In this document: positions 12,868 through 57,480 of the stretch, piece by piece
How the letters are laid out: the number at the start of each line of letters is the position of its first letter
Position numbering within the stretch: the first letter of the stretch is position 1
Assembly (NCBI GenBank): GCA_033763315.1
Contig: JANRKS010000007.1
Span: forward strand, 122,073 to 186,072
Direction of reading: 5' to 3'
From: Deltaproteobacteria bacterium
GTDB taxonomy: Bacteria; Myxococcota_A; Polyangia; Fen-1088
DNA length: 64,000 bases
Made by a program: the position numbers and the translations under genes
The notes under the pieces: generated by a model
Told to the model about the DNA's origin: nothing
What the model saw: the letters and a program-made list of their open reading frames with translations, nothing else
Databases searched by the model: none

Positions 12868-13689
12868 TTAAAACAGCCCAAGCTGCTTCTCGAAGGGGAT
12901 GGGCAGGACGCCGATGATGACCCATGGGTTTACTGCCACTTGGTGCCACTGCTGGGTGGTTCCGAGAAAGAGATGCAAATCCTTCTTTAGGAACTCGTCC
13001 ATGTACTTCTGCCGGACCTTTGCTATCGCCTTCGACTCATCGCCATTTGCCAATTGCAGGCAGTTCCGGTAGAGCGCACCGATCTCCCAGTCGAGGATCT
13101 GCTGCTCGCTCTTCTTGCCGGCGGCGTCTTCAAACCTGTACGAAAATTTGTATGGCAGCTTCGGGATCACCCTAAAAGTTTCTCGCCAGGCGTTGTCCTC
13201 GAATAGCTCATGCTGTCGTGAGGCCTCGCGCATCTCCTTGACCTTGTTGATATCCCACTCTCGTTCGTCCTCTTCGACCACGAACTCCAAGATGCGGGAG
13301 GGCTTAAATACGGCGAGCGAGATTTGGTTCGCCTTCGCACCCGCGATCAGCTCCTCGAGGTTATCGTAGACGCGCGCCTTCTTCAGAAGGATCTCGCGAC
13401 GCTCGCGCCAATTGTCGCCCGTGCTCATCTTGCCGACGGGCACCAGCTCGCGCTGATCCATGGGGCGAAAAGTCTCCGGGCGGATGTCCACCGTGTTGCG
13501 TTGGAGCCGGCACTCGACCCAGTCGTACTTACTGTACTGCTGCGTCTCATCGAGCCGTCGGAACGGGACCGGATAGATGCGCACCCAGCTCCCGTCCTCG
13601 CGGACACCGGCGGTACACACCGTCTCGCCATACTTCCGAGACAGCGTGGGGTACGTCTTGACGGTGATGAGAACTCGCTGCCTCTCCAT
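12868..13689 (-). CDS. hypothetical protein (274 aa) encoded directly downstream of the Panacea-like/DUF488 gene; no recognised domain
   Basis: ORF 12868..13782; ATG at 13689 (MERQRVLITVK...) chosen, 20 nt after upstream stop and 4 nt after a G9 tract; lower GC than flanking operons. Confidence 0.5.
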   Translation of the reverse strand: MERQRVLITVKTYPTLSRKYGETVCTAGVREDGSWVRIYPVPFRRLDETQQYSKYDWVECRLQRNTVDIRPETFRPMDQRELVPVGKMSTGDNWRERREILLKKARVYDNLEELIAGAKANQISLAVFKPSRILEFVVEEDEREWDINKVKEMREASRQHELFEDNAWRETFRVIPKLPYKFSYRFEDAAGKKSEQQILDWEIGALYRNCLQLANGDESKAIAKVRQKYMDEFLKKDLHLFLGTTQQWHQVAVNPWVIIGVLPIPFEKQLGLF

Positions 13690-13709
13690 CGTGCCCCCCC
13701 CCAACATTC

Positions 13710-14642
13710 TCAAAAGTGCTTGGCAGTGAGGTCCTCGCTGGCCTTGCCCGCGAGAGCTTCGGCGACACAATGGCGATGGCACTGGTTCGGCTGGTGCTCG
13801 TAGCAGGTCAGAGTTACGCGCTCGCCTGCATCAATCCAGTCCTCGATCTTCTTCAGCGCAGCCGCCTGCTTCGGAAGCCAGGTGCTCTCGTAGTGGGCAA
13901 AGAGCGCGTCGTAGTCGGCCTGCGTGTCGAGTGATTGCCGCTGCTCAGACGCGATACCGAGCTCGGGCAGGTGCTCATAGCGAATGCCGACGCCCTCGCA
14001 CCCGCGCGCGAGCGTGTTCTTCGAGAAGCCGTACTTCCGGCTTATGGGGTTTCGGCGTACGTCGCAGAGGAGCGTGACGCCGTGCTTGAGTAAGATGTTT
14101 AGGTAGCTTTCAAGCGTGTGGCCCTCGTAGCCGATGGTGCTCAGCGCAGGGCCAGTCGCTTTGGCGCGGACCGCGTTAATGCGGGCAAGCGTGGCGGCGT
14201 CACCTTTGAGGACACGCTCGGCGATCTCGCTGCGTGTCGCGAAAAACGGGAAGCGCCGATACGTATCGGCGACCAGTGCATCCCCGTGCAGACCGCGATG
14301 CCGCTTCGCAAATGCCGCGAGCTGCATGTCCGTCGTGCGGGCGATGATTTTCCGCCCCTCGGCAGTGATCTGCCAGCCGTCCAAATCCTCCAGCAGCCCG
14401 CGCTCGATTAGCTTGCGACGATCTGCGTAGGACGTGAACGAGAACGCGCCGAACTTATACGGGACGAAATCGTAGGGCGCCTCTGCCGTAGGCGCCTCCT
14501 GACAGTAGAGGAATAGCAGCTTTTGGAAGTCGAGCATGCCTGACGTGCCGCCCAGCGCATCCAGAAGCTGCAATAGCTGGCGCTGCCGCGAGAACAGCAT
14601 CGGCGACGTCGAACGGGTGGATGTGTGGGAGGTGCAATTCAT
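13710..14642 (-). CDS. fusion protein: N-terminal Panacea/SocA-like (DUF4065-like) domain + C-terminal DUF488 (YeaO-like) domain
   Basis: N-terminal FQKLLFLYCQ...YDFVPYKFGAFSF resembles the DUF4065 core (LQKLLYF...Y.YGP); C-terminal TIGYEGHTLESYLNILLKHGVTLLCDVRRNPISRKYGFSKNTLARGCEGVGIRYEHLPELG matches the DUF488 signature; alternative start near 14600. Confidence 0.55.
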   Translation of the reverse strand: MNCTSHTSTRSTSPMLFSRQRQLLQLLDALGGTSGMLDFQKLLFLYCQEAPTAEAPYDFVPYKFGAFSFTSYADRRKLIERGLLEDLDGWQITAEGRKIIARTTDMQLAAFAKRHRGLHGDALVADTYRRFPFFATRSEIAERVLKGDAATLARINAVRAKATGPALSTIGYEGHTLESYLNILLKHGVTLLCDVRRNPISRKYGFSKNTLARGCEGVGIRYEHLPELGIASEQRQSLDTQADYDALFAHYESTWLPKQAAALKKIEDWIDAGERVTLTCYEHQPNQCHRHCVAEALAGKASEDLTAKHF

Positions 14643-15236: not shown

Positions 15237-17159
15237 TTACCTATCGGCGTGCACCGGCAACTTCACCGACGGCGGAATCTGTAGAGTCTTGACGCCGCGG
15301 CCCCAGCAAATTGTCTCGCCCGAAGGCCGTTTTCCACACTCACTATCGGCGCCCATCCAAAAGGCTGTAAAGAGCCCTTTTTCCGGGTACGGCTGAGTTC
15401 CGTCATACTCGAAAAGATACGAGCGCGTGACGGCCCAGCCTCTTTCGTCCGCCTTTGTGAGAGCCCCACCGAAGTAGCGCCCATCGCTAGCGAAGTTGAC
15501 CAGCTCTTGGCCTGGCTCGCTTTCCTCCTTATCTCCCTTTCGGTTCATACAAATCATTCGCTTGTTGGCCGTCAAGCCGCACACGAAGTCAGCGCCACAA
15601 AGAATGTCGACGAAAGTGCCGGGAGGAACCTTGGGGGTGTCGCCCCAACAAACGATGTGACCGTCTTCCGCCAAAGCGCAGGCATGGACGTGTCGTTGGC
15701 TGTTGGCCAGCAATTCGTCTGTTTGTGAAATCCAACGACCGCCACCGCAAAGCTTCGTGTATCTTGCCGCAGGCACCTGTTCTTTGGCCCAATCGTGGCC
15801 TCGAACTTCAATGTGGCCATCAGGCATCAGCGACAGCGTCGCCAAGGGAGCTGGGTAGGCGGCCTTGGCGCCGGCCACAACAGACGCTTGCGTCCAACCA
15901 TCAACGGTAAAGCATTCAGGTTTTCCATCAACGGTGTCTCCGCACACGCCTTGTTCATGCACGTAGAGGTTGGAGAATCGCAAATCAGGAACGCGAAAAG
16001 GTGGAAAGGGTCTTTCTTGTCCACCACGCATGCAAGTGGCTCGGCCGTCCTTGAGCACCACGCACAGATTCGTCGCACTGCCCGCCATAGTCGCTACGTC
16101 GGGGTAGAATCCCGGCCCATCGCCCTGTACCGTGTGCACCCAGCACACAAGTGGGAAAGGTGCCTTTGAGGCGCTCGCTTCAACACCACAGCGAAGCGAG
16201 CTTTCGGCATGGCGATTTTCCGTGGGCGGGGTAGCTTGACCACGATCGTTGTAGCCCCAGCAGGCAACACGATCATCAGCTGCGATCGCACAAGTGTGTA
16301 AGGCTCCTGCCTGCACGTTCTTCCACTTGCCAGGAACCGCGACCGATTGGCCACACTCCCACTCAAGCTCTTTGCAAGGCGCCGTCGTTTTGCCGGCGCC
16401 CCAGCACGTCAGTTCGCCATCCATCGTGACGCCACAGGAATGATACCGGCCCGCTGTCACTTGTTTGAATTTGCCACGTGGCGGTTTACTTTGACCATGG
16501 CTGTTGGATCCGCCGCAGTGAACGGTTGAAGAAGCATCGAGAGCGCAAACGTGGTGACCGCCAACCGCTACCTGTGTGAACTTGCCTTCGAGTGCCTGGA
16601 CCCGCTCACAATACATCGTGCCGTCGGAGCGGATTGCACACGCGCCGAACTCGCCGCCTGCGATTGATATGAAGGGGCCTTTGATGGACTCGTCCTCTCC
16701 GACTGAACTGCTGATGTTTCCGTCGTCCTCAAGTATCCAGTCGTTCCTATTGTGATTTCCAGCAGGGACCTCTACCCAGTCCTTTACGGCGCGTGTTTTG
16801 ATACGACCGAAGACTATGGAACCTGCGTGATCTGGTTCCGAGAGAAAGGAACTGCGTTGCTCGGTTATCAGCACCGGGCCTTCGTCGATGCATGACAATT
16901 TTTTTAGCATGATGACTGGTGCCTCGACGAAATCAGGCATACCCCAAACCACCGCGCTTCCGTCCTTGCGCAAGCCGCAGCTGACGTGTTGGCCAGCCGA
17001 CAGCTGAGTCAATTGAATGCCAAAAGTCACACCAGTCACTCCGGTGCCCGCAGGCACTGACGTGGAGGCTTGCCCTGTTCCTTGACGAAGGTTGGGTTGC
17101 AGCGGCTTATTTCTGCAACCCGTGACAAGGCAGATTACAACCAGCAAAAAAACTCTCAA
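15237..17159 (-). CDS. lipoprotein with RCC1-like beta-propeller repeats
   Basis: lipobox LVTGC; repeated H.CA...DG...CWG.N..GQ units (e.g. YHSCGVTMDGELTCWGAGKT, HTCAIAADDRVACWGYNDRGQA). Confidence 0.7.
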   Translation of the reverse strand: MRVFLLVVICLVTGCRNKPLQPNLRQGTGQASTSVPAGTGVTGVTFGIQLTQLSAGQHVSCGLRKDGSAVVWGMPDFVEAPVIMLKKLSCIDEGPVLITEQRSSFLSEPDHAGSIVFGRIKTRAVKDWVEVPAGNHNRNDWILEDDGNISSSVGEDESIKGPFISIAGGEFGACAIRSDGTMYCERVQALEGKFTQVAVGGHHVCALDASSTVHCGGSNSHGQSKPPRGKFKQVTAGRYHSCGVTMDGELTCWGAGKTTAPCKELEWECGQSVAVPGKWKNVQAGALHTCAIAADDRVACWGYNDRGQATPPTENRHAESSLRCGVEASASKAPFPLVCWVHTVQGDGPGFYPDVATMAGSATNLCVVLKDGRATCMRGGQERPFPPFRVPDLRFSNLYVHEQGVCGDTVDGKPECFTVDGWTQASVVAGAKAAYPAPLATLSLMPDGHIEVRGHDWAKEQVPAARYTKLCGGGRWISQTDELLANSQRHVHACALAEDGHIVCWGDTPKVPPGTFVDILCGADFVCGLTANKRMICMNRKGDKEESEPGQELVNFASDGRYFGGALTKADERGWAVTRSYLFEYDGTQPYPEKGLFTAFWMGADSECGKRPSGETICWGRGVKTLQIPPSVKLPVHADR

Positions 17160-17178
17160 TGGATTTTAAACCTCATGC

Positions 17179-19698
17179 TCAAACGCTCAGGAATTTTTCG
17201 TTGAATGATCGTTTCACGATTACTTTTCCATCACCGTAGACGTCCAAGTTGAGAGTTGAACTGATCGTGGCCCACGACCCGGCAGGGGCGCGGTGGGGCC
17301 CCTCTAACTTCACGTATTCACCCTTCGCAAGGCGAACGGACCCATCCGGAGGAAGCTTGAGCCAGCTGGCACCCGTGCTACTGGATATCGAGAAACTCCC
17401 CGTCCACATCATTGCGGTTGGAGGCATACGAGCGCCTTTGTACTCGATGCCGACGTAAACGTCTTTTTCGCTTCCGTCCCCCGCGAAGGCCACCTTGGCC
17501 ACGAACGTACCAAACAAAATCTCATGCAATGCTTGCTCCTGCGCAGAAGCATCTGCCCTCAGCAACATTAACGGTTTACCGCCGGACCAATCGGGCACTT
17601 CGTCATCGTTGCCATCGCCCCATGGGGTGTGCCTGAGGAATACCTTTACATCATCGTAGTGGGCCGCGACCCGAGTCCCGACCTCCTTAACGGCCAAGCT
17701 TGCCAACACGAAGAGGATGCCGACGCCAGTGCCGCTTAAGACGGCACCCCCTGCAATGCCGAGCATCGCTCCTGCAGCACCAACTGCAGACGCGGCGACA
17801 GCGCCGTTGTTGCGTTTCGCAAAGCCGTCCTTGATGTTGAGCACGCAATCGACACTATCGAGCAACAACGCCACGGGAGTGAGCTTCGCTCCCTTAAAGA
17901 TCCCCCGGCTCCAAGTGATTTCCGGAAGACGGTACTTCCCGACCATGGAGGACAGACTTCCGTAGAAGCCAACGGCTCCGTAGAGGGCCGTCCACGCTTC
18001 GCGACCTTCCCGTTTTTCCCAAAATGTGTCGACGTTTACGATCAGGTTCGCGAGCTGGCCCGCAAGGCTCAACGTATCGAGGTTCGCGTCACGCAGTTTT
18101 GCCAGCGGTGACTTGGGATCGGAACTTGCAGTCGTGATTCTGCTTTTGAACGCCGTCCAGCGACGTTGGTCTTTCGCCCGGACCACTGGAAGTGCAATCT
18201 GCATCCAGGCCCCCCACACCTTCTTCGCCTTACCGGCCGGCGTGGTTATCGCATCGAGGCGGGCCTTTAGTAAGTCGGCGAGTCCTTCGTCCTTGTGTGG
18301 CGTCAAGCGCGGCAACAGGCGCAGCAGATAATCGTCAGTACCCCCTATCCCCCGAGTGTCTAAAAGGCAAGCCATGGCCACGGCCTCAAGGTGATCTATG
18401 CGTTCTTCATCACCAAGATGGTCGTCGAAAAGTCCCGCGAAAGCGTTGCCGAACCCTCCCATGGGCGGCCCGGGGGGCAAAGAGATTTTTGACGCGGGCG
18501 AAGACGCGAGCTCCTTCATGGTGCAGTCAGATACGATATACGTGTCAGCTTGCGGCCAGGCTGCTTCCACAAAAAGGTTGTTGCCAAGCGACGGCAACGA
18601 GAACGGCAACTTGCACTGCCGTTGTGGCACGCCGATCCAACGAACAACGGCCGTACCCGCGAACTCTAAAGCCGCGCGCAGTCTTCGCGACTTGGCCTCC
18701 TTGGACAGAAAATAATATGAGAGCCCGTTGCCATCAATCGGGCGCGCGTCGGTCGAGGTGCGGGCGATCTGGCCGAGCGAAACAAGTTCCTCGAGGTCTT
18801 GATCGCCTTGCACCAGAGCGCGCACATGGCAGGCCACTCGATATTGGGCGTCGGTCGCCAGGCGACTTGTCTCGGCAAGCCAATCTTGATTAAGGCGCTG
18901 AAAAATCTGCGCGCGCAGTATCGCTTCGTCCAGCGGATCAAATAGATGCACTCTGAAAATCTGCGAAATTCCCGCAGGTGAATTTATATCCAGCGGCACG
19001 AAACGTTTTTCAGACTTCGGGGAGGCTGTGTCGGTTGTGAAGGGGTCCCACAGGGGCACGAGCCGATTTGTGACAGCCGCGATTGCCTTCTTGGCGTCAC
19101 TGCCGAATCCTTCCCTGAGATCTTGCCGCACTTTCTGGGGCAGCGGAAACGGCGCCAACATGAAGAAGTAGCAGTCGTGCATTGCACATTGATTTTGTGT
19201 GCACGACAATGCGCTCAAAGCCAACCTCGTCTCTTTGGGCCCCGTTGGCACTCCCTGGGCATCGCAGTGCTGAAATGACCCGTTCTCGAAATGCAGTTCA
19301 TGCTCCAGCACCAAACCTTCGCGCAGGTTGTTCTTGGCCTTGAACACGTAAACGCGCTTGTTGTTGATCGGTTGGCTCGCCTCACGATCAAACGTGCGCA
19401 TGAAAACGCGAACTTGATTTTCGGCATGCCACTCGCATTCCATTCCGCGGTAAACCCCACCCATCAAACGCATGTTTGGCGAGAGCCGCTGGCCATGGTC
19501 GTCGGTGCCCTCTTGTACTCCAAAGAAACGATAGATGGTGGCAACTCGTGGACCGTCGTCGCCCCTGACCAGGTATTGCCGGCTCCACGGGTTCCATTGC
19601 AGATCATACAAACGATCTATCTGCCGAAATGTGACCACCACGTTCACGATCGCTGACTGAATGCCTCGCTTATCCGCGGGTTGTTGAGCGTCAGTCAT
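17179..19698 (-). CDS. large hypothetical protein (~840 aa) with glycine-zipper transmembrane segment near the C-terminal third
   Basis: ORF 17179..19725; ATG at 19698 overlaps upstream stop (ATGA); AVAASAVGAAGAMLGIAGGAVLSGTGVGILFVLASLAV GxxxG-rich hydrophobic stretch; no catalytic motif recognised. Confidence 0.5.
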   Translation of the reverse strand: MTDAQQPADKRGIQSAIVNVVVTFRQIDRLYDLQWNPWSRQYLVRGDDGPRVATIYRFFGVQEGTDDHGQRLSPNMRLMGGVYRGMECEWHAENQVRVFMRTFDREASQPINNKRVYVFKAKNNLREGLVLEHELHFENGSFQHCDAQGVPTGPKETRLALSALSCTQNQCAMHDCYFFMLAPFPLPQKVRQDLREGFGSDAKKAIAAVTNRLVPLWDPFTTDTASPKSEKRFVPLDINSPAGISQIFRVHLFDPLDEAILRAQIFQRLNQDWLAETSRLATDAQYRVACHVRALVQGDQDLEELVSLGQIARTSTDARPIDGNGLSYYFLSKEAKSRRLRAALEFAGTAVVRWIGVPQRQCKLPFSLPSLGNNLFVEAAWPQADTYIVSDCTMKELASSPASKISLPPGPPMGGFGNAFAGLFDDHLGDEERIDHLEAVAMACLLDTRGIGGTDDYLLRLLPRLTPHKDEGLADLLKARLDAITTPAGKAKKVWGAWMQIALPVVRAKDQRRWTAFKSRITTASSDPKSPLAKLRDANLDTLSLAGQLANLIVNVDTFWEKREGREAWTALYGAVGFYGSLSSMVGKYRLPEITWSRGIFKGAKLTPVALLLDSVDCVLNIKDGFAKRNNGAVAASAVGAAGAMLGIAGGAVLSGTGVGILFVLASLAVKEVGTRVAAHYDDVKVFLRHTPWGDGNDDEVPDWSGGKPLMLLRADASAQEQALHEILFGTFVAKVAFAGDGSEKDVYVGIEYKGARMPPTAMMWTGSFSISSSTGASWLKLPPDGSVRLAKGEYVKLEGPHRAPAGSWATISSTLNLDVYGDGKVIVKRSFNEKFLSV

Positions 19699-21143
19699 AG
19701 CACCGGACCCGTCGTGTCGATCCAACCCACAGCATCATCTATCGCAGCAAGGCCCTGTTCCCCCTCAGCGACGTGGTGCCGATCGAACTCTTCTGTACGC
19801 GGTTGATCGACAATCTCAATAAACGTGCGTCCAAGGAAGACCTGGCTTTGGCGACCGCAGCCGTCGATCCTCTCTAAATCGTAAACTGCGTCTAAGAGAA
19901 GCTCGTCAAACTCAAGTTGCAAGAGATCGTCGCCCGGCACCAAGTCATCCTTTGGCGTGCGCTTCTTTTGATAACGTCCATCGGTGCTGCGCAACACGTA
20001 TTGCGGATGTTCCATGTCATCCAGCGGCTCGTGAGTCGCGAACGCGATCGTCATCACGGGTGGATAGACGCAGTAAAGGTTTTGCTGGTTCACCAAGCCG
20101 GTTACGGGGGGGCCGCCCGCCACCACAATGAGCCGATCGTGCCCGTCTTTTCGGTCCGATGGTTCGCCCTTCCCTTGGGTTCCGGGCCCCTGTTTGCCTT
20201 TGCGATCAGGTAGCTGCGGAAATTCAATCATTACAGGTCCCTGTTTGGATACCGGTTCCATTCGGAGAAAGCCCGCCGAATCCAATGTGCCACTAAGCGC
20301 GGCGCCATCGCTGTCCTTGCCGCTCACGGAACAGTCCGAAATCGGGCGGCCATGCGGATCGCAGACTTTGATTTCCACCCAACCTTTTTCAAGTTGCTTA
20401 CGTTCGTCAACCCATTTTTTGAGTTGAGCCGGCGTCATGGCCTGTTCGGCGGATGCGCCTTCGACCGATGGCGCACGAACTTTCTGCAGAAGGAACAGCG
20501 CATTGCCGGTTGGATGCTGCGATGGATGCGAGATGGCGCTTTCAAGGCGGGTCCACGTTGTTTTATCCAGGGCAGCATTCTTAGATCGCGCCAAGGCGCC
20601 AAGGATTTCGTGCGCTTGTTGTGGCCGCATGGCTTCAAAGTCGCCACTTCGAATGGCCTCGGCGTATATCTCACTCATCACAAGTCTGTAAGTTCTGCCA
20701 GAAAACAAGAAGGGGTTGCCAAACGCACTCCAAAACCGTCGGGCCGCCGAATACAGCACGTCGCTGCCAGACCCTTGCTCGCCACCAGTTAGCAGCTGAC
20801 TTGGTAGAACCAGCATTCGGCGGTCAAGGATGCCTTCCATTACCCAGTCTATGGCCGCGTCGAAGTTTCCCACCTCTATGCCCGGTCCCAGATGAGCCTC
20901 AGCGAATTCGGAGACCTTCCACGGATCGAGCCGATACTCGTCATACTGTTCGCGCACGATCTGGGCTGCCAACACCGGCTCCCAGGCGTGACGTTGCACT
21001 CCATCGGGCACTTGATACCAACAGGCGACGGCGAGCCGTCTGTCGAACGCATCAAAAAATAGGTACTTGGCGGACGGCATGACTCGGGCAGTCTGATCCA
21101 CGAAGGGCGCTGCGGCAATCGATATGGACTCGCATCTAGACAT
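19695..21143 (-). CDS. hypothetical protein (482 aa), first gene of a three-gene minus-strand operon
   Basis: ORF 19695..21545 trimmed to ATG 21143, because the longer form would overlap the divergent gene starting at 21204; no recognised domain. Confidence 0.45.
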   Translation of the reverse strand: MSRCESISIAAAPFVDQTARVMPSAKYLFFDAFDRRLAVACWYQVPDGVQRHAWEPVLAAQIVREQYDEYRLDPWKVSEFAEAHLGPGIEVGNFDAAIDWVMEGILDRRMLVLPSQLLTGGEQGSGSDVLYSAARRFWSAFGNPFLFSGRTYRLVMSEIYAEAIRSGDFEAMRPQQAHEILGALARSKNAALDKTTWTRLESAISHPSQHPTGNALFLLQKVRAPSVEGASAEQAMTPAQLKKWVDERKQLEKGWVEIKVCDPHGRPISDCSVSGKDSDGAALSGTLDSAGFLRMEPVSKQGPVMIEFPQLPDRKGKQGPGTQGKGEPSDRKDGHDRLIVVAGGPPVTGLVNQQNLYCVYPPVMTIAFATHEPLDDMEHPQYVLRSTDGRYQKKRTPKDDLVPGDDLLQLEFDELLLDAVYDLERIDGCGRQSQVFLGRTFIEIVDQPRTEEFDRHHVAEGEQGLAAIDDAVGWIDTTGPVL

Positions 21144-21203
21144 GTTGTGGCGACGTTGGTAGCCTCGGCGCAGCTTGTTCGAATGTTTGCGAGGAAATTG
21201 AGA

Positions 21204-23276
21204 ATGCTGAAGCCTAGCCTTTTGTTCGGTGCGTTGTTCGCGATAGCCGTGCTCACATTTGGGGCCTGTTCCAAAGAGTCGGAGACACGCCCTTGCAATC
21301 CCGGCACTGTGTTTCTGCAATTCGTGTGTTCTAAGGCGTTGGGCGAGGTCAACGCCACCGCGGAACTTGAAGGCTTGGCGGGTCAAAGGTCGTCGAAGTC
21401 CTTCAACTTCAACTGCCCGGGTACCTATAGCCTGGAGGTTAAAGTCACAGGCTACGAAACCGGCGGCAAGATCAATGCCTTGGTCAACGCGACCGCTGGC
21501 GACGGGATTTTGCTCAAGGACAAATCGGTCGAGATACCGTTGCAAGATGGGTGCACTAGATTTGATCTGGAACTGGATGCCTCCGACGCACTAGACGCGG
21601 CGGTGGTGATGAACAGTGAAGATGGCGGCACTTTGACGGGCAACGATGGGGCCGCGACAACTGATGCCGATTCCACCTCAATGGGAGTCGCCCGGGGCGG
21701 ATCCTGTGCGCGCGACGAACAATGCATTGATGGTCATTGCGTCGACGGCGTCTGCTGCGACACAGCTTGCGATGGCGTGTGCATGGCCTGCACCAACGAA
21801 AAGACCGGCAGCCAAACGGGCCAATGTTCGGCGACAAAATCAGGCGTGAAGCACAGCAAGTGCGTTGCCACTGAGCCAACGTCGTGCGGCACCGACGGCG
21901 CGTGTAACGGCGCCGGGAAGTGCAGTTTCTGGGACAGCACGAATGAATGCTCAGCGGCCACATGCAGCAGTGGCGACTACGTGCCAGCCCGAAAGTGCAA
22001 CGGCGCGGGTGCCTGCCAGGCAGCGGCACCCAGCAAGTGTGGTGAATACGCTTGCACAGGCGAGGGATGCAAAACCAATTGCAGCGTTGCAGGCGATTGC
22101 TCTGCGGGTGTGCAATGTATCGGCGGGAAATGCGGAGGCAAGCGCGCCTTAGGCGACGCTTGTTCCACCAACAGCGAGTGCACAAGCCCGGGATATTGCG
22201 TGGACGGAGTTTGTTGCGGCGCAAAGTGTGACGGCAAATGCGAAGCCTGCAGTGCGACGCTGACGGGCGGTAACAATGGAGAGTGTCTGCCGGTGCCTGC
22301 AGCCAAAGGCAATCAAGCCGATTGCTCGGTTCAATCGGCCGCAAGCTGTGGGATGACTGGGCGTTGCGATGGTGCCCGGAAGTGCGAGCTGCACGCCGCT
22401 GGGACGGAATGCGTAGGGCAAACGTGCTCGGGCGCAGGATACGCTCCCGCTCGTAAGTGTGACGGGGCCGGGAGTTGTCTCCCCGTTAGCGTGATGAGTT
22501 GTGGAACCCACATCTGCGCCGCAGGAAACTGCAAGAATCCTTGCGCGTCTGACAATGACTGCATCTCTGGTAACTTCTGCAGCAACGGGACCTGTACGGC
22601 CAAGCGTGACAATGGGGCTTCCTGCAACGGAGGCGGTAACCAATGTGCGAGCGGCATTTGCTCGAGTTCAGTGTGTTGCAACTCAGCATGCAGCGGAAGC
22701 TGTAACAGTTGCAAGTCAGGAACCTGTTCGAATGTCTGTCAGAATGTGACAGTCGGCCTGAACAACAACATCAGCGGGCACCTGCATACTGCTTACGGCG
22801 CAGTCTCGAAGCGCGAAATTTTCCAAGTGGGCGACACCGAACTGCAAATTGATGGCTACAGCATCGCTTACTTTAGCTTCGATGTGTCCTCCATCCCATT
22901 CGGGTACACAGCGACGGCGGCAACACTCTCGTTCATAGTCTCTGACTGTAATATGAACGCCTTCGCGCTCGGGAATATGACGGTTGAACCTCTGGATTAC
23001 GGAACGACTTTTGAGCCGGCAGATGCGTTGATCGCAGCAACGGCGACTGGAAAAGTGGTGGCGAGGTCAGAAAGCGACGTCGGCACTATCTCAATCGATG
23101 TTCTCGATTGGGTGAACAAAGACTTAACGGCCCGCCACTCGAACCTCAGTCAGTACAGAATTCGATTTGCGACGACGCAGAATAACGACGGTCGCAATAC
23201 TTCTTGCGCGATACCGAATTCCACGTTCATTGCCCCAGTGGTTCCTTCTCTTTCCATGTCTGTAAGACAGCCGTAA
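21204..23276 (+). CDS. lipoprotein with Myxococcus-type cysteine-rich repeats and a C-terminal non-repeat domain
   Basis: ATG 21204 with GAGGAAA RBS and lipobox LTFGAC; more than ten C..DG.C..G.CC...C.G.C..C repeats. Confidence 0.7.
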   Translation: MLKPSLLFGALFAIAVLTFGACSKESETRPCNPGTVFLQFVCSKALGEVNATAELEGLAGQRSSKSFNFNCPGTYSLEVKVTGYETGGKINALVNATAGDGILLKDKSVEIPLQDGCTRFDLELDASDALDAAVVMNSEDGGTLTGNDGAATTDADSTSMGVARGGSCARDEQCIDGHCVDGVCCDTACDGVCMACTNEKTGSQTGQCSATKSGVKHSKCVATEPTSCGTDGACNGAGKCSFWDSTNECSAATCSSGDYVPARKCNGAGACQAAAPSKCGEYACTGEGCKTNCSVAGDCSAGVQCIGGKCGGKRALGDACSTNSECTSPGYCVDGVCCGAKCDGKCEACSATLTGGNNGECLPVPAAKGNQADCSVQSAASCGMTGRCDGARKCELHAAGTECVGQTCSGAGYAPARKCDGAGSCLPVSVMSCGTHICAAGNCKNPCASDNDCISGNFCSNGTCTAKRDNGASCNGGGNQCASGICSSSVCCNSACSGSCNSCKSGTCSNVCQNVTVGLNNNISGHLHTAYGAVSKREIFQVGDTELQIDGYSIAYFSFDVSSIPFGYTATAATLSFIVSDCNMNAFALGNMTVEPLDYGTTFEPADALIAATATGKVVARSESDVGTISIDVLDWVNKDLTARHSNLSQYRIRFATTQNNDGRNTSCAIPNSTFIAPVVPSLSMSVRQP

Positions 23277-53303: not shown

Positions 53304-54428
53304 ATGCACAGTAGATCAATTGCCAGATTCTTATGCGGAGCGGCTTCGATTTCGATGCTCGGAAGTTTCTCCTTTCAAGCACAAGCTCGAACAGTGCAAG
53401 GCGTTGATCGCGACGGTGATGGACGAGCAGACGTGGCCGTTTACCGTCCATTAAACGCTCGATGGTTTGTCACGATATCAAACGGCGGTGAGAGCAACGA
53501 AGTATTTGGAAACAAAGGAGATATCGCTGTGCCAGGTGACTATGACGGTGACGGCAGAACAGACCTCGCGGTCTTCCATCCTTCGAATGGCTTCTGGTTC
53601 ATCAATCACTCGTCGGGCATTGCACCGAAAGCCAAACAATGGGGGCTATCCGGGGATGTGCCAGTGCCAGCGGACTACGACGGCGATGGCAAGACGGATC
53701 TTGCGGTCTATCGTCCGTCTTCCGGCTACTGGTACCTGATCAATTCAAGGAGTGGTCTAAGCGAATCACGTGGTTGGGGGCTTTCAGACGACGTACCACT
53801 TCCTGGCGACTACAATGGAGACGGACGTTTTGACTTTGCTGTGTACAGACCATCACTGGCTCAATGGCACATCCTGCTCAATGGAAGCGCACAGACGATC
53901 TTTTCAATATGGGGAGATGCTGGCGATGTTCCGGTGGTCGCAGATTTCGACGGCGATTGGGTAACTGATACGGCCATCTATCGCCCAAGGGATGGGTACT
54001 TCCATATCAAGCTTGCAAGCGGACTGCGCCAATACCGATTCGTTGGAGCAAACCAAATACCCATCGTCGGCGACTATGATGGCGACGGCAAGGCTGACCC
54101 CGCTGTTTGGAACACGCAAACCAGCCTCTTCACGATCAGCCTGATGGCAACGAACGTGATGAAGACGGAAGTCCTAGGGTTTAATGACTTCACGGAGTAC
54201 GGCCGAGATGTCCCGCTTGTTTCCACTCTCTATGCTCAGCAAAGCGTTCCGAGGATCGCTTTAGCGCAAGGGACTTGGTGTTGTGCGTCCTGTAGCCCGG
54301 ATGGCAAGACTTGCGGACTATGCCAGGTAAAGCCTGGTACAGGATTGTGTCCAACTGGGACCAAAACAAAAACCGGAGACTGCGAGTCGACGGATGATGG
54401 AGACTTTTTAGACCTGACTTGTAGATGA
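53304..54428 (+). CDS. secreted FG-GAP/VCBS-repeat propeller protein with Cys-rich C-terminal tail
   Basis: signal peptide; six to seven D(Y/F)DGDG(K/R)(T/A)D.AV(Y/F)RP...W repeats; low GC (~52%). Confidence 0.65.
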   Translation: MHSRSIARFLCGAASISMLGSFSFQAQARTVQGVDRDGDGRADVAVYRPLNARWFVTISNGGESNEVFGNKGDIAVPGDYDGDGRTDLAVFHPSNGFWFINHSSGIAPKAKQWGLSGDVPVPADYDGDGKTDLAVYRPSSGYWYLINSRSGLSESRGWGLSDDVPLPGDYNGDGRFDFAVYRPSLAQWHILLNGSAQTIFSIWGDAGDVPVVADFDGDWVTDTAIYRPRDGYFHIKLASGLRQYRFVGANQIPIVGDYDGDGKADPAVWNTQTSLFTISLMATNVMKTEVLGFNDFTEYGRDVPLVSTLYAQQSVPRIALAQGTWCCASCSPDGKTCGLCQVKPGTGLCPTGTKTKTGDCESTDDGDFLDLTCR

Positions 54429-54643
54429 TCAACAATTCTCATCTGCCACAGAAATGTGGCTCAAGGTCGCTGCGACGATCTCTGCATGGGTCGCGCATCC
54501 CCCCTCAGAAACTGCAGTCGAGGTGTGGCCATTGACGGCCTGTCTCTCCTGACAAAAACAAGTGCGGCGGCAGTTTGTGCTGCGCATGGTTCTTAGCTCG
54601 TTTCTCACCACATTCAGAAGTTCTCAGATCAAAGGTATCTCAT

Positions 54644-56611
54644 ATGAAGAAGACTCAATGGATTTTCACTATCCTTCTGATGGGGATTCCCTTCACTTTT
54701 ACCTCGCTGGGAATCGACAAACCTACGGTAGCAGCAGAGCCGGCTGCTGCAGAACCTGCAGGTCCCTTTGAAAAAGCCTGGGCTGTCCTCACGAAACTCA
54801 AATCAGACCTCGATCCATGGATCGATGCGGCCAGCTATGCCAAAAAGTTGATTGAAAAGTTTTACGGGGTACCAACAGAAATCGAGCTAGCTCGAGATGA
54901 AATCATTGCCGAGATAAAGAACACCCAGATTACACGGCTGGAAGGAACGATAATCGGAATGCTCAATAACTTCGCCGATGTTGTCCGTGATCCCAATAAC
55001 ATGCACAACAGCTTTCAGCTTAATCTCATCAAATCTCAAGCAGATCTGGTGCTCGGCGAAATGCAATCGTTGATAGAAAGACGTGATTCGGTTTCTGTGA
55101 AAGAGCTTGCCGTCGCGAGCAATCTCGCCACAGCCGTTGGCGCTGCGGCCCGAAAGCTTCTTGGTATGGAGTCCGCGATTTCTCCCCTTCTCCAGCGACA
55201 GATGGATATGAACTATTCGGTTGTAGGTGTTGATTCTTACTATGTGAATAGGTCCGCAGTGCGAGACTCTGCGGGCTCCAGCTTGCTGTGGTCCGTGATC
55301 GATACGCCAGCGTTTTACTGTGATAGCACGGAGGCACGGGCTGAACTTGCTAACAAGCGCATTATAACCCTACACTCCCCGCCAGGCGGAACGATCGCGA
55401 ATGCCGTTTATTGCAAGCACAAGGATGGAAAGTGCTTCGCGTATTACAAGGACCCAAGTCCGATCGCAAATGGCCTTGCGGAGGGAGTGGGAAGTCCCAA
55501 AACAACATTTCCAATATGCTGGAAAGAAACGCACTCGCGAGCATTGAGAGCCTTCGATGATAATCCGACGGTCAAGGCCATCAAAAAGGCGATGCAGCAA
55601 TCATATTTTTCAGGATACAGGCCATCGGCGATATCAGGACCCTTCATCATTAGCGGATGTCTGTCAAAGGCGGCAAATTCAATTCTGGACTTCGACGGTG
55701 ATTGCACGAGCGATCTCGCTGTTTACCGCCCAGGGTACACTAGTTCCTTCGAAGTTCTTCTGAGTCGGACAGCGAGCTTCAATTCCACCTCAATGCCTCT
55801 CGGTGGCTACAACGACCTTCCTGTCCCAGGGGACTACGATGGTGATGGAAAATCAGACGCCGCCGCTTATAGGATCGCAGACGGTCTGTGGTCGATAGCC
55901 CCTAGCTCCGGCGCTGCGCCGTACTCGCGGGCATGGGGGCTAGAAGGAGACACACCCGTTCCTGCTGACTACGATGGTGACGGAATGACCGACATCGCGG
56001 TCTACCGGCCTAGCAATGGCCATTGGTATGTTTGGCCGAGTGGTGGTGGCGATAGATATGCGGTGCCATGGGGGCTGAGCACGGACATTCCAGTCCCCGG
56101 CGACTACGATGGCGACGCGAAAGCAGATTTCACGATTTGGCGCCCAGGGGATGGCAATTGGCACGTGCGTCCTACATCAGGAGCGGCGCCATACGCAGTT
56201 CAGTGGGGGCTCCAAGGTGATCATCCAATCCCACGAGATTTTGATGGCGACGGACGACTTGACTTTGCTGTTCGCAGGGACGGTCAATATGGCGTTTACG
56301 TAATGCCAAGTAACGGAGGAAGCAGATACTTCGTGGCGTTTGGGAACCCAGACGACATTGCCGTTCCGGCTGACTTTGATGGCGATGGGAAGGCGGACCA
56401 GGCCGTTTGGCAAAGAGCCAAAGCATTTTGGTGGTACAAAAGGAGCACGGGAGGGGATCGAGTCCCCTACGACTCTAATTGGGGGCGCTCACCGCCTCCA
56501 AATTGGGAGCCCGTGAATCCGACTATCGGTCGACAATGGGGAACGAACCGAGATTTCCCCCTTGGTTCGCAGCTTCACGGAAACTTCTCCTGGGCCGGCG
56601 TATTTAGGTAG
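54644..56611 (+). CDS. secreted protein: unknown ~350-aa N-terminal domain + FG-GAP/VCBS-repeat propeller
   Basis: ATG 54644 (MKKTQWIFTILLMGIPFTFTSLG); six DYDGDG.TD.AVYRP...W repeats paralogous to upstream gene; low GC. Confidence 0.65.
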   Translation: MKKTQWIFTILLMGIPFTFTSLGIDKPTVAAEPAAAEPAGPFEKAWAVLTKLKSDLDPWIDAASYAKKLIEKFYGVPTEIELARDEIIAEIKNTQITRLEGTIIGMLNNFADVVRDPNNMHNSFQLNLIKSQADLVLGEMQSLIERRDSVSVKELAVASNLATAVGAAARKLLGMESAISPLLQRQMDMNYSVVGVDSYYVNRSAVRDSAGSSLLWSVIDTPAFYCDSTEARAELANKRIITLHSPPGGTIANAVYCKHKDGKCFAYYKDPSPIANGLAEGVGSPKTTFPICWKETHSRALRAFDDNPTVKAIKKAMQQSYFSGYRPSAISGPFIISGCLSKAANSILDFDGDCTSDLAVYRPGYTSSFEVLLSRTASFNSTSMPLGGYNDLPVPGDYDGDGKSDAAAYRIADGLWSIAPSSGAAPYSRAWGLEGDTPVPADYDGDGMTDIAVYRPSNGHWYVWPSGGGDRYAVPWGLSTDIPVPGDYDGDAKADFTIWRPGDGNWHVRPTSGAAPYAVQWGLQGDHPIPRDFDGDGRLDFAVRRDGQYGVYVMPSNGGSRYFVAFGNPDDIAVPADFDGDGKADQAVWQRAKAFWWYKRSTGGDRVPYDSNWGRSPPPNWEPVNPTIGRQWGTNRDFPLGSQLHGNFSWAGVFR

Positions 56612-56692
56612 AACGTCGCCGACACCGTTGTGATTTGCTGTTGGTCGCCATTTGAAACCTACTCGGGGCCTCCATGTCAGGGGCCGATCTTT

Positions 56693-57480
56693 CGTAAGCG
56701 TTCAGGCCCCCGAAAAAGTTGTCAAAATCGAATGCCTGACGATTTGCTAAGAAAGGGGATCGACAGCAGATCGCAAACGTGATCTACCTTGGTCGTTGGA
56801 CGACAAGGCAAAGATCGCAGAGCTCACGGCGCAGCTGCTGGCCAAAGACGTAGTGATCGAGGAGCTGCGGCAGGAGATCGTTGAGCTCAAGGGTGTGGTG
56901 GCTGAGTTGAGGGCGCTGGTGGCCGATTTGACCGAGAGGCTTGGCCAGAACTCTCGCAATTCACACAAGCCGTCGTCAAGCGATGGCCCCGGCGCCACCA
57001 GGAATTCGGGCAAGCCTAAACACGGCTCCGATCGGAAGCGCGGTGGCCAAAAGGGCCACCGCGGCCGCCATCGTGAGCTGCTGCCCGCAGATCAGGTCGA
57101 CGCTGTAGTGGATGTGTTCCCATCGCATTGCGAGGGGTGCGCGGTGCGCGGAGCCGCTGCCACCGATTCCTGACATGCAAGCCGCACGCAGGTGACCGAG
57201 GTGCCACCAATAAAGCCTCACACGACTGAATATCGCCAGCATGCGGTGACATGCCCATGTTGCGCGCACTCCACGCGCGCCACGGGCGCCGGCATCATTC
57301 CAAGATCCCCGTTTGGCCCGCGTTTAATGGCCCTGGTGGCCTTGCTTAGCGGCGTGTACCATCTGAGCCGCCGTCGCACAGTGCAGGCGCTGCACGACAT
57401 CCTAGGCGTGCGCATTTCGTTGGGCGCCGTCAGCGCTGTTGAAGCACGTGTTAGTGATGCGGTTAAGCATAGAGCGTGTC
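56693..57480 (+). mobile_element. truncated IS66-family insertion sequence remnant (left end only)
   Basis: IS66-type terminal repeat start GTAAGCG at 56693; TnpC-like leucine-zipper and zf-IS66 regions; no DDE domain and no right-end CGCTTAC found. Confidence 0.7.
56796..57480 (+). pseudogene. IS66 transposase (TnpC) fragment, frameshifted and 3'-truncated
   Basis: 56796..57173 encodes the leucine-zipper N-terminus (RKRGGQKGHRGRHRELLP); 57192.. continues in another frame with zf-IS66 (TEYRQHAVTCPCCAH) and the start of the DDE region (GPRLMALVALLSGVYHLSRRRTVQALHDILGV), then similarity is lost near 57480. Confidence 0.65.

What the first reader, a model, noticed from the sequence alone, without database searches (positions are those of the whole stretch)
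15237..21143. Translationally coupled three-gene operon of unknowns: 482-aa protein, ~840-aa protein with glycine-zipper membrane segment, RCC1-repeat lipoprotein
The three minus-strand genes are tightly packed: an ATGA overlap at 19695-19698 and a 19-nt gap at 17160-17178. Their GC (~50-55%) is lower than the genome background. The middle protein has a long Gly/Ala-rich hydrophobic stretch (AVGAAGAMLGIAGGAVLSGTGVGILFVLASL) of the glycine-zipper type seen in pore-forming effectors and abortive-infection proteins. I found no P-loop, nuclease or protease motif in any of the three. The last gene is a beta-propeller lipoprotein. This could be a polymorphic toxin or effector with accessory proteins, or a membrane-acting defence module.
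Basis: partly seen in the sequence, partly recalled or inferred. Interest (0 to 1): 0.6.

Follow-up and report, generated by a model that had tools for sequence, protein, structure and literature searches.

The report
Orphan injected pore-toxin module with helper genes
These three tightly packed genes most likely encode a membrane-puncturing toxin that one bacterium injects into another, a helper that loads it onto the injection spike, and a lipoprotein that may protect the producer; the toxin is a previously undescribed, mostly myxobacterial cousin of known type VI secretion toxins.

Summary
The three-gene, minus-strand operon is real. The ATGA overlap and the 19-nt gap are confirmed. The same triad recurs in four other unrelated contigs at 32-46% protein identity. 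Two corrections: GC is 56.8% (window 59.6%), not 50-55%, and gene 1 probably starts at 21080 (461 aa).

Gene 2 (839 aa) founds a rare family of 66 clusters among 1.84 billion representatives. Its glycine-zipper region is collinear with, and distantly homologous to, the pore-forming transmembrane region of BTH_I2691/VasX/Tke5 type VI effectors. It falls far below that family's cut-off and lacks the MIX motif.

Gene 1 carries two unnamed domains:
- A C-terminal ~100-aa domain sits immediately upstream (-4 to +5 nt) of a gene-2 homologue in all 14 independent loci where the upstream gene is readable.
- A beta-sandwich domain also occurs at the C-terminus of a VgrG-like spike fragment and in a PAAR protein next to homologues.

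Gene 3 is a clade-specific RCC1 lipoprotein in the position where other clades carry small membrane proteins, so it is a putative but unusual immunity protein.

Best reading: an orphan adaptor-toxin-immunity module for a contractile injection system. Delivery, toxicity and immunity are inferred, not shown.

The parts
19695..21080 (-). Gene 1 (g1), 461 aa from ATG 21080 (482 aa if ATG 21143). No signal peptide. Proposed adaptor/carrier for the toxin.
   Evidence: ORF. The start at 21080 matches P0004 and the N-termini of homologues. No family hit above threshold. Orthologues lie upstream of g2 in L002, L003 and L008.
20202..20387 (-). g1 middle beta-sandwich domain (residues ~232-293), transthyretin/CarboxypepD_reg-like.
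   Evidence: An HMM of this segment hits the C-terminus of the VgrG-like fragment L019:1-813 (domain E 1.3e-27; seed member). Non-seed hits: the L010 PAAR protein (9.6e-11), the proteins upstream of g1C in L006/L012 (about 1e-11) and the L013 g1-like protein. The L011 97-aa protein is also a seed member (independent BLAST pairs). There is a weak Pfam CarboxypepD_reg hit in the L008 orthologue (E 7e-5, below cut-off).
19779..20081 (-). g1 C-terminal domain 'g1C' (residues ~334-434). Signature: M[ST].xF...D.[EDH][HY]PxYxLxSxDGxY(7)[DN]DLxPxD...LxF...Y.L.R...F...DQxR.
   Evidence: Found in the protein encoded immediately upstream (-4 to +5 nt) of a g2-family gene in all 14 independent loci where the upstream gene is readable. 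It occurs as a 150-220 aa stand-alone protein or fused to OmpA/PG_binding_1 domains. No Pfam family matches.
17179..19698 (-). Gene 2 (g2), 839 aa. No signal peptide. Proposed pore-forming (membrane-depolarising) effector.
   Evidence: ORF and ATGA overlap. Full-length homologues P0002, P0003 and P0006. A profile search finds 66 clusters at E<=1e-3. 13 of 40 family members hit NF041559, the BTH_I2691 T6SS effector family.
19009..19698 (-). g2 N-terminal alpha/beta domain (residues ~1-230), conserved across the family (VTFRQIDRLYDL, GVYRG, RTFxRxxSxPIxxKRVYVF, LWDPFxTD). Proposed adaptor-binding/loading domain.
   Evidence: Alignments A1 and A5. Many family hits match positions 10-360. No Pfam VasX_N/MIX hit in 40 members. 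The central MIX motif hRxGhhYhh is not present by inspection.
17584..18081 (-). g2 residues 540-705: the region similar to the C-terminal transmembrane (pore-forming) part of the BTH_I2691 family model.
   Evidence: Direct hit E 0.038 to model positions 735-844 of 858. Relatives hit the same collinear region with E 9e-11 (P0015), 1e-9 (P0014, P0011), 2.6e-14 (P0060) and 8.6e-5 (L019).
17662..17808 (-). g2 glycine-zipper hydrophobic hairpin (residues 631-679, GAVAASAVGAAGAMLGIAGGAVLSGTGVGILFVLASLAV...).
   Evidence: Kyte-Doolittle maximum 2.17 over 19 residues. It is the only such segment in the protein and sits at the same position in family members.
17182..17511 (-). [quoted passage not shown]
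   Evidence: All-strand prediction, and the only part of the AF2 model with pLDDT 65-76. Conserved in A5. Its position parallels the Ig-like beta-rich region of Tke5/Ptx2 (PMC12909789).
15237..17159 (-). Gene 3 (g3), 640-aa RCC1-repeat lipoprotein (TTG start; lipobox VTGC, Cys15). Putative immunity protein; an alternative role is a surface/targeting factor.
   Evidence: Pfam RCC1_2 E 1.9e-33 and WD40_RLD. Orthologues sit directly after g2 in L001, L002 and L008/9 at 41-46% identity, all with a lipobox. No small membrane-protein ORF follows g3.

Best explanation
The locus is an orphan effector module of a contractile injection system, most likely a type VI secretion system. The module has three proposed parts:
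- **g2, the toxin.** It is made in the cytoplasm without a signal peptide and is carried out on the spike. In the target cell's periplasm it inserts its glycine-zipper helical hairpin (residues 631-679) into the inner membrane. There it forms ion-conducting pores that collapse the membrane potential, as shown for Tke5, VasX and Ptx2.
- **g1, the adaptor/carrier.** Its C-terminal domain (g1C) binds the conserved N-terminal domain of g2. Its beta-sandwich domain, of the same kind found at the ends of VgrG-like and PAAR proteins next to homologues, connects the complex to the spike.
- **g3, the candidate immunity protein.** This lipid-anchored periplasmic beta-propeller is co-translated with the toxin and most likely neutralises toxin delivered by sister cells.

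What is shown:
- operon anatomy and conserved synteny;
- remote homology of the g2 transmembrane region to BTH_I2691-family effectors;
- strict g1C/g2 gene pairing (all 14 loci with readable upstream sequence);
- g1 domains shared with spike proteins in related loci;
- export signal on g3 only.

What is inferred: physical g1-g2 binding, spike loading, pore formation, the immunity role of g3, and the presence of a T6SS in this genome.
For: 1. Synteny and coupling. The triad is conserved in five independent contigs at 32-46% identity, with the 4-nt g1/g2 overlap kept.
2. Homology of g2. The A1 profile finds about 850-950-aa relatives matching both the N- and C-terminal halves. 13 of 40 hit NCBIfam NF041559 'T6SS effector BTH_I2691 family', always g2-family residues ~450-700 against model ~590-858, with E down to 2.6e-14. 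The direct g2 hit is E 0.038.
3. [quoted passage not shown] This parallels Tke5/Ptx2 (PMC12909789).
4. The g1C pairing. g1C is encoded directly upstream of a g2-family gene in all 14 loci with readable upstream sequence, across Myxococcota, a Rubrivivax MAG, Bryobacteraceae and Krumholzibacteriota.
5. Spike linkage in relatives.
   - L019 reads VgrG-like fragment (Gp5_trimer_C E 9.6e-11) with a g1-type beta-sandwich, then g1C protein, g2 homologue and a polytopic membrane protein.
   - L010 reads PAAR protein (PAAR_motif 34 bits, above cut-off) with the same beta-sandwich, then a PG-binding protein, a 1207-aa PG-binding protein ending in g1C, and a g2 homologue.
6. Action outside the producer cytoplasm. 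g1C partners lack signal peptides yet carry OmpA or PG_binding_1 domains.
7. Acquired module. GC3 is lower than in neighbouring genes.
Against: - No VgrG, PAAR, Hcp or other injection-system gene lies in the 64-kb window. The rest of the genome could not be examined.
- g2 itself scores only 12.5 bits against NF041559 (cut-off 150). No family member passes the cut-off. Profiles of the family do not hit the solved Tke5 structure sequence in the PDB.
- The N-terminal domain has no detectable MIX/VasX_N signature.
- g1 is not a DUF4123 adaptor.
- Known immunity proteins of this toxin class are membrane proteins. Beta-propellers were explicitly noted as absent among immunity proteins in the 2012 survey (PMC3482391).
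- Several related loci (L006, L012, L014/L020, L011) show no co-directional downstream gene at all.
- Both AF2 models are unreliable (pLDDT 38-40), so no fold-level support exists.
Confidence: 0.6

Rival explanations
1. A membrane-acting anti-phage (abortive-infection) module. On infection, g2 inserts into the producer's own inner membrane and kills or arrests the cell, with g1 and g3 acting as sensor or regulator.
For: The module sits in variable, defence-rich neighbourhoods:
- PADLOC candidate system PDC-M19A/B (DUF488 pair) lies immediately downstream in the window.
- BREX genes lie upstream in L011.
- HipA/HipB lie next to L001.
- A transposase plus AAA_11/UvrD helicases lie next to L008.

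g2 has no signal peptide, and glycine-zipper effectors are used by several abortive-infection systems (established knowledge, not tested here).
Against: - No PADLOC model hits g1, g2 or g3.
- Related loci link the pair to a VgrG-like spike and to a PAAR protein.
- Partner proteins carry peptidoglycan-binding domains without export signals.
- The homologous region belongs to secreted T6SS toxins.
- Injection-system cargo islands and defence islands commonly share hotspots, so context alone does not discriminate.
Confidence: 0.12
2. A toxin delivered by a route other than a contractile injection system, for example myxobacterial contact-dependent killing or release by lysis. Here g1 would be a co-delivered peptidoglycan- or envelope-targeting carrier rather than a spike adaptor.
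For: - No spike or sheath genes lie in the window or in most related loci.
- g1C partners are fused to OmpA/PG_binding_1 domains, and one locus has a Peptidase_M14 gene upstream.
- There is no MIX motif and no DUF4123.
- The family is centred on predatory Myxococcota.
Against: The only secretion-related genes ever found beside family members are a VgrG-like fragment and a PAAR protein, and both share a domain with g1. Orphan T6SS effector modules far from the core cluster are common (established knowledge; see the table of orphan effectors quoted in PMC13133200).
Confidence: 0.15
3. The toxin/adaptor reading holds, but g3 is not the immunity protein. It is instead a surface lipoprotein that mediates target-cell contact or specificity, or another accessory factor. 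Immunity would then be encoded elsewhere or not needed.
For: - Immunity proteins of Tke5, VasX, Ptx2 and Bte2 are membrane proteins (PMC13133200).
- L019 and L016 have small membrane proteins downstream of the g2 homologue, not RCC1 proteins.
- Beta-propellers were not known among immunity proteins (PMC3482391).
- A large putative lipoprotein (TasL) that mediates cell contact for T6SS killing is described in Vibrio (PMC9040878, abstract).
Against: - g3 occupies exactly the immunity position and is translationally coupled: a 19-nt gap in the window and overlaps in L002 and L008.
- It is retained in every locus of the clade where downstream sequence exists.
- It diverges at the same rate as g2 (41-46% against 40-46%).
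- No alternative immunity candidate lies in or after the operon.
Confidence: 0.3

Closest known systems
Tke5-Tap3-Tki5 of Pseudomonas putida K3-T6SS (BTH_I2691 family, NF041559; PDB 9R8G)
   Same: The gene order is adaptor, effector, protective protein. [quoted passage not shown]
   Different: - g2 scores 12.5 bits against a 150-bit cut-off.
- There is no MIX motif or VasX_N hit.
- The upstream partner is not DUF4123 but a protein with two unnamed domains.
- The downstream protein is a 640-aa RCC1 lipoprotein rather than a membrane protein.
- There is no vgrG or PAAR in the neighbourhood.
- The taxa are mainly Myxococcota, whereas the reference proteins are Beta-/Gammaproteobacteria.
VasX-VasW-TsiV2 of Vibrio cholerae and Ptx2-Tap6-Pti2 of Pseudomonas aeruginosa
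   Same: These are pore-forming, membrane-depolarising T6SS effectors encoded after an adaptor gene and before an immunity gene. Some are orphan modules linked to a particular VgrG (as summarised in PMC13133200 and PMC12909789).
   Different: The differences are the same as for Tke5. In addition, in those systems the adaptor binds a VgrG C-terminal helix-turn-helix or a MIX domain. Here the candidate connector is a beta-sandwich domain shared with VgrG-like and PAAR proteins.
VgrG and PAAR proteins with C-terminal transthyretin-like extension domains used for cargo recruitment
   Same: The g1 middle domain is a ~60-residue beta-sandwich. It is homologous to the C-terminal extension of a VgrG-like fragment (L019) and to a domain in a PAAR protein (L010), with weak CarboxypepD_reg similarity.
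   Different: In the window the domain is on a free-standing protein fused to the toxin-binding domain, not on the spike. That the domain is truly transthyretin-like, and that it mediates recruitment, rests on my recollection of the literature and on weak hits, not on a structure.
TasL, putative lipoprotein for cell-cell contact in Vibrio T6SS killing (PMC9040878)
   Same: It is a large lipoprotein encoded with T6SS cargo genes that is not a classical immunity protein.
   Different: No sequence relation was tested. g3 is an RCC1 propeller placed in the immunity position of the operon.

Membership tests
BTH_I2691 T6SS effector family (NCBIfam NF041559; VasX/Tke5/Ptx2) | Whole-protein score above the curated cut-off of the family model (150 bits) | tested here: not met
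   g2 scores 12.5 bits, E 0.038. The best relative scores 52.8 bits. None of 40 family members passes.
BTH_I2691 T6SS effector family (NCBIfam NF041559; VasX/Tke5/Ptx2) | Homologous helical transmembrane (pore-forming) region with Gly-rich helices | tested here: met
   The support is transitive. g2 residues 510-830 match P0015 at E 6e-40. P0015 residues 492-697 match model positions 614-837 at E 9e-11. 13 of 40 members hit the same collinear region, best 2.6e-14. The hydrophobic hairpin is conserved in position.
BTH_I2691 T6SS effector family (NCBIfam NF041559; VasX/Tke5/Ptx2) | N-terminal MIX domain (shhPhR, hRxGhhYhh, hh[FY]SxxxW[ST]; Pfam VasX_N) | tested here: not met
   No Pfam hit in g2 or in 40 relatives. 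By inspection only fragments resemble the motif (VVTFR at 21-25, VYVF at 116-119, PLWD at 215-218). The R-x-G of the central motif is absent (alignments; motif definition from PMC12909789).
BTH_I2691 T6SS effector family (NCBIfam NF041559; VasX/Tke5/Ptx2) | Three-part fold: MIX alpha/beta domain, helical region enclosing the transmembrane domain, C-terminal Ig-like beta sandwich | tested here: inconclusive
   The order of secondary-structure elements agrees, but the AF2 model has mean pLDDT 40. Foldseek against the PDB gave nothing significant. PDB sequence-profile searches miss Tke5.
BTH_I2691 T6SS effector family (NCBIfam NF041559; VasX/Tke5/Ptx2) | DUF4123 (Tap) adaptor gene upstream | tested here: not met
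   g1 and its homologues have no DUF4123 hit. A different conserved domain, g1C, takes that position.
BTH_I2691 T6SS effector family (NCBIfam NF041559; VasX/Tke5/Ptx2) | Genetic linkage to vgrG/PAAR or a T6SS cluster | tested here: not met
   None lies in the 64-kb window. Linkage is met only in distant relatives: a VgrG-like fragment in L019 and a PAAR protein in L010.
BTH_I2691 T6SS effector family (NCBIfam NF041559; VasX/Tke5/Ptx2) | Cognate transmembrane immunity protein encoded downstream | tested here: not met
   The downstream gene is an RCC1 lipoprotein, and no membrane-protein ORF follows it. Small membrane proteins do follow the homologues in L019 and L016.
BTH_I2691 T6SS effector family (NCBIfam NF041559; VasX/Tke5/Ptx2) | Ion-conducting pore formation, membrane depolarisation and T6SS-dependent secretion | not testable with these tools
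   This requires toxicity, electrophysiology and secretion assays.
Known or candidate anti-phage defence systems (PADLOC-DB v2) | Match of any component to a defence-system model | tested here: not met
   g1, g2 and g3 have no hit at E<=0.1. Only the two neighbouring genes match PDC-M19A/B.
Polymorphic toxin systems (sensu Zhang et al. 2012) | Conserved N-terminal trafficking region joined to variable C-terminal toxin cassettes | tested here: not met
   Family members align collinearly over their full length, including the C-terminal half. No cassette swapping was seen.
RCC1-repeat beta-propeller lipoproteins (g3) | RCC1 repeats plus an N-terminal signal peptide with a lipobox cysteine | tested here: met
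   RCC1_2 has six stretches at E 1.9e-33, and WD40_RLD E 1.4e-19. A lipobox is conserved in all four orthologues. Lipidation itself was not tested.

The most novel reading that the evidence does not exclude
A second, previously unrecognised loading system for contractile-injection pore toxins. A new N-terminal effector domain would be paired obligatorily with a new ~100-aa adaptor domain (g1C) and a spike-type beta-sandwich. Together they would replace the MIX/DUF4123 pair across Myxococcota, Acidobacteriota, Krumholzibacteriota and some Betaproteobacteria. In the window's clade, a periplasmic RCC1 beta-propeller lipoprotein would serve as a new kind of immunity protein against a membrane-inserting toxin.
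Probability: 0.35. Interest if true: 0.65.

Novelty: new variant of a known kind. Interest (0 to 1): 0.55.

Why it matters
- **Taxonomic reach.** Pore-forming T6SS effectors of the VasX/Tke5 class have reference proteins in Beta- and Gammaproteobacteria, with a divergent Bacteroides member. They were structurally and biophysically characterised only in 2025-2026. This locus points to a sister family centred on predatory and social Myxococcota, where very few injected toxins are known.
- **A possible new effector marker.** The family comes with its own, unnamed adaptor domain whose pairing with the toxin is strict (all 14 loci with readable upstream sequence). If confirmed, g1C and the g2 N-terminal domain would be a new marker pair for finding injection-system cargo in phyla where MIX, DUF4123, DUF1795 and DUF2169 searches find little.
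- **An unusual protective protein.** An RCC1 propeller lipoprotein acting as immunity would widen the known ways of neutralising membrane-inserting toxins.
- **Annotation fixes.** Public gene models cut 117 residues from g2 and remove the lipoprotein signal from g3.

Tried and rejected
1. **Structure route.** AF2 on g2 (3-sequence alignment) and on g1 (2 sequences) gave pLDDT 40 and 38. Foldseek of the g2 model against the PDB gave only insignificant Ig-like/Kir hits. I did not use these.
2. **PDB sequence searches.** Profiles A1 and A4 and the single sequence P0015 gave no hit to Tke5 or Ptx2.
3. **Third homologue search.** Using the 40-sequence alignment as query returned only the same three proteins, so it was wasted.
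4. **The search for related loci.** I replaced this with a hand-built degenerate DNA pattern for g1C. It found 7 genome loci and 3 metagenome loci, each one next to a g2 homologue.
5. **tblastn of P0015 against plasmids.** No match, so no bona fide BTH_I2691 sequences were available for a profile-profile comparison.
6. **Promoter/terminator scan and repeat/tRNA search around the operon.** Nothing above chance and no island boundaries.
7. **MIX domain reading of the g2 N-terminus.** Considered and rejected at motif and Pfam level.
8. **DUF4123 reading of g1.** Rejected.
9. **Hidden small membrane immunity ORF after g3.** None found.
10. **Literature search.** It found no description of this family or of RCC1 immunity proteins.

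Full report

Yes, in its essentials.
- Three co-oriented minus-strand ORFs fill 15237-21143.
- The g1 stop and g2 start overlap as ATGA at 19695-19698.
- The g2 stop (17179-17181) and the g3 TTG start (17159) are separated by 19 nt, with a GAGG 12-15 nt upstream of the TTG.
- g2 contains a single 49-residue Gly/Ala-rich hydrophobic stretch (residues 631-679) with six overlapping small-xxx-small-xxx-small motifs.
- g3 is an RCC1-repeat protein (RCC1_2, E 1.9e-33). Its N-terminus, MRVFLLVVICLVTGC, is a lipoprotein signal.

Three details need correcting.
- The region is 56.8% GC against 59.6% for the window, not 50-55%. The compositional difference is real but shows mainly at third codon positions: 0.59-0.65 against about 0.72-0.79 in neighbouring genes.
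- g1 most likely starts at ATG 21080 (461 aa). That is where homologues begin and where gene callers placed it. It also leaves room for the divergent lipoprotein gene that begins near 21183-21204.
- The public annotation of g2 (722 aa, SF187_07240, 'MAG: Deltaproteobacteria bacterium') lacks 117 N-terminal residues that are conserved, some invariantly, in homologues. One gene caller also cut the lipoprotein signal off g3, although the signal is conserved in all orthologues.

**2. Is it more than chance?**

The same gene order recurs on unrelated metagenomic and MAG contigs.
- g1-g2-g3 occurs in L002 and in L008/L009 (a Myxococcales MAG).
- g2-g3 occurs in L001, where the contig ends inside g1.
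- g1-g2 occurs in L003/L004, where the contig ends inside g2.
- The 4-nt g1/g2 overlap is kept in each.
- Identities are 32-39% for g1, 40-46% for g2 and 41-46% for g3. The three genes have therefore diverged together over a long time.
- The flanks differ in every locus: HipA/HipB, a transposase plus helicases, or the DUF488 pair. The triad is the unit that moves.

**3. What is g2?**

Word-based searches found only three relatives. An exhaustive profile search found 66 clusters at E<=1e-3 among 1.84 billion representatives. Most are 830-950 aa and match both the N-terminal (about 10-360) and C-terminal (about 510-830) parts. Where named, they are 'hypothetical protein' from Myxococcales MAGs. 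None matches any Pfam family.

Thirteen of 40 match the NCBIfam model NF041559, 'T6SS effector BTH_I2691 family'.
- The match is always the same collinear stretch: g2-family residues about 450-700 against model positions about 590-858.
- E-values are 2.6e-14 (P0060), 1.2e-11 (P0048), 9e-11 (P0015) and about 1e-9 (P0011, P0014).
- g2's own hit is marginal (E 0.038). The chain g2 to P0015 (E 6e-40) to NF041559 is sound.
- All scores are far below the 150-bit family cut-off. This is a sister family related through the transmembrane region, not a member.

According to the 2026 papers on Tke5 (PMC12909789, PMC13133200), BTH_I2691 proteins (Tke5, VasX, Ptx2, Bte2) have three parts: an N-terminal MIX alpha/beta domain, a large helical region enclosing Gly-rich transmembrane helices that alone suffices for killing, and a C-terminal Ig-like beta-rich region. 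They depolarise the inner membrane from the periplasmic side.

g2 shows the same order of parts, but only at low resolution.
- Strands and helices occupy residues 1-156.
- Helices occupy 174-729, with the hydrophobic hairpin at 631-679.
- An all-beta region runs from 731 to the end.
- The AF2 model is poor (pLDDT 40). Fold and PDB sequence searches gave nothing.

The N-terminal domain is conserved across the family (VTFRQIDRLYDL, GVYRG, RTFxRxxSxPIxxKRVYVF, LWDPFxTD). It does not carry the MIX signature. Only fragments resemble it and the central R-x-G is missing.

**4. What is g1?**

g1 has no family hit, but comparison across loci resolves two domains.

*The g1C domain (residues about 334-434).* It is found in the protein encoded immediately upstream of a g2-family gene, at a distance of -4 to +5 nt, in all 14 independent loci where the upstream gene could be read. 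In the fifteenth, L001, the contig ends 30 residues into the upstream ORF, which also overlaps g2 by 4 nt. This includes seven genome loci and three metagenome loci that I retrieved with a degenerate DNA pattern for g1C alone. Every one of them turned out to have a g2 homologue next to it. The taxa are Myxococcales, Nannocystaceae and Archangium MAGs, a Rubrivivax MAG, Bryobacteraceae and Candidatus Krumholzibacteriota.

The domain occurs in several forms:
- alone in 150-220-aa proteins;
- in about 460-480-aa proteins, as here;
- after OmpA and PG_binding_1 domains (L017);
- at the end of a 1207-aa PG_binding_1 protein (L010).

None of these partners has a signal peptide. This suggests they work outside the producer's cytoplasm only after non-Sec export.

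*The beta-sandwich domain (residues about 232-293).* It gives weak CarboxypepD_reg hits. It recurs in these places:
- at the C-terminus of a partial protein with Gp5_trimer_C and Gp5_C repeats, that is, a VgrG-type spike (L019);
- in a bona fide PAAR protein (L010, PAAR_motif 34.1 bits, above cut-off);
- in the small proteins encoded just before g1C in L006 and L012, where g1 appears split in two;
- in a 97-aa protein beside L011.

L019 therefore reads: VgrG-like protein with this beta-sandwich, g1C protein, g2 homologue, polytopic membrane protein. That is the canonical vgrG-adaptor-effector-immunity layout. L010 reads: PAAR with the beta-sandwich, PG-binding protein, PG-binding protein ending in g1C, g2 homologue. 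These two loci are the only direct links to a delivery machine, and both point to a contractile injection spike.

**5. What is g3?**

g3 is a 640-aa, cysteine-rich RCC1 propeller with a conserved lipobox. It is specific to the window's clade and always sits directly after g2. In other clades that position holds a small membrane protein (L019, L016), an unrelated 556-aa protein (L010), or nothing co-directional (L006, L012, L014/L020, L011). No small membrane ORF hides after g3.

By position, coupling and co-divergence, g3 is the best immunity candidate. It would be an unusual one.
- Immunity proteins of this toxin class are membrane proteins (PMC13133200).
- A broad survey noted that beta-propellers had not been found among immunity proteins (PMC3482391).
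- A contact or specificity role, like the Vibrio lipoprotein TasL (PMC9040878), is a fair alternative.

**6. Mechanism proposed.**
- g1 and g2 are co-translated, and g1C binds the g2 N-terminal domain. This is inferred from obligate adjacency and by analogy with Tap3 binding the MIX domain of Tke5.
- The g1 beta-sandwich couples the complex to a VgrG/PAAR spike encoded elsewhere. This is inferred from domain sharing with spike proteins.
- After firing, g2 reaches the target periplasm and inserts its glycine-zipper hairpin into the inner membrane. It forms ion-conducting pores that dissipate the membrane potential. This is inferred from remote homology to Tke5/VasX.
- g3, anchored in the periplasm of the producer and its kin, sequesters incoming g2. 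This is inferred from position only.

I put about 0.6 on the overall module reading and about 0.4-0.45 on g3 as immunity.

**7. Rivals.**
- *Abortive-infection or defence module.* Neighbourhood supports it (PDC-M19 here, BREX, HipAB, helicases). There is no PADLOC hit, and it does not explain the spike links or the peptidoglycan-binding partners. I give it about 0.12.
- *Delivery independent of a contractile system.* It remains possible because the window and most related loci lack spike genes. I give it about 0.15.
- *A housekeeping or structural role.* Unlikely given the rarity, patchy multi-phylum distribution, lower GC3 and variable flanks.

**8. Novelty and value.**

The kind of system, a pore-forming injected toxin with adaptor and protective protein, is known. 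This family, its N-terminal domain, the g1C adaptor domain and the RCC1 partner are not described in Pfam, NCBIfam, PADLOC or the searched literature.

I classify it as a new variant of a known kind, with moderate interest of 0.55. The main weaknesses are:
- no usable structure;
- no view of the rest of the genome;
- dependence on two distant loci for the spike link.

Noticed in passing
window 12868-14642 (minus strand): Two overlapping genes immediately downstream of the operon match the PADLOC candidate defence system PDC-M19. The 310-aa DUF488 protein matches PDC-M19A (E 1e-100) and the 304/279-aa protein matches PDC-M19B (E 5e-113). Their GC3 (0.78-0.79) is higher than that of the toxin module.
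   Followed up: partly
window 17179-19698 and 15237-17159: Public gene models appear wrong. NCBI's g2 (SF187_07240, 722 aa) starts 117 residues too late, cutting off a domain that is conserved in all homologues. One caller's g3 (597 aa) removes the conserved lipoprotein signal that begins at the TTG at 17159.
   Followed up: yes
window 21183-23276 (plus strand): A divergently transcribed ~690-aa cysteine-rich lipoprotein (signal ...LTFGAC) has many CxxC-type repeats and a weak C-terminal DNRLRE-domain hit (E 0.0014). Its GC3 is 0.64, like the toxin module. It is not conserved next to the triad in other loci.
   Followed up: partly
window 53304-57773: This is the lowest-GC stretch of the window (51-53%). 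It holds two secreted FG-GAP repeat proteins (374 and 678 aa, GC3 ~0.52). Two short ORFs follow whose sequence looks to me like IS66-type transposase remnants; I did not test that.
   Followed up: no
window 57969-60695 (minus strand): An MbnB/TglH/ChrH-type RiPP precursor-modifying enzyme (PF05114, E 2.9e-35) lies with two adjacent unannotated genes, one carrying a signal or lipoprotein-like N-terminus. This may be a small peptide-modification cluster.
   Followed up: no
L011 (Rubrivivax MAG contig, 1-22688): The g2 homologue P0012 lies between a BREX system (PglY, PglZ, BrxD, helicase) and three large convergent genes. Two of those carry the eCIS_core (DUF4157) domain, one of them also BMT5-like. 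Together they form a mixed defence and toxin island.
   Followed up: no
L010 12698-14368 (Krumholzibacteriota MAG): The 556-aa protein after the g2 homologue has no signal peptide and a weak LCAT/lipase-like hit (E 0.0011). It may be a second effector rather than an immunity protein. The 1207-aa g1C-bearing protein also has a weak reprolysin-like metallopeptidase hit.
   Followed up: no
L016 3809-5203 (Archangium MAG): A Peptidase_M14 zinc carboxypeptidase gene (E 2.5e-18) sits directly upstream of the g1C gene. This echoes the peptidoglycan-binding domains fused to g1C elsewhere.
   Followed up: no
L006 8999-9964 (minus strand): The convergent gene directly after the g2 homologue P0015 encodes a 321-aa lipoprotein (MKRWVASVLVAVSAMVGC...) with no family hit. 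It is unclear whether it relates functionally to the toxin.
   Followed up: no
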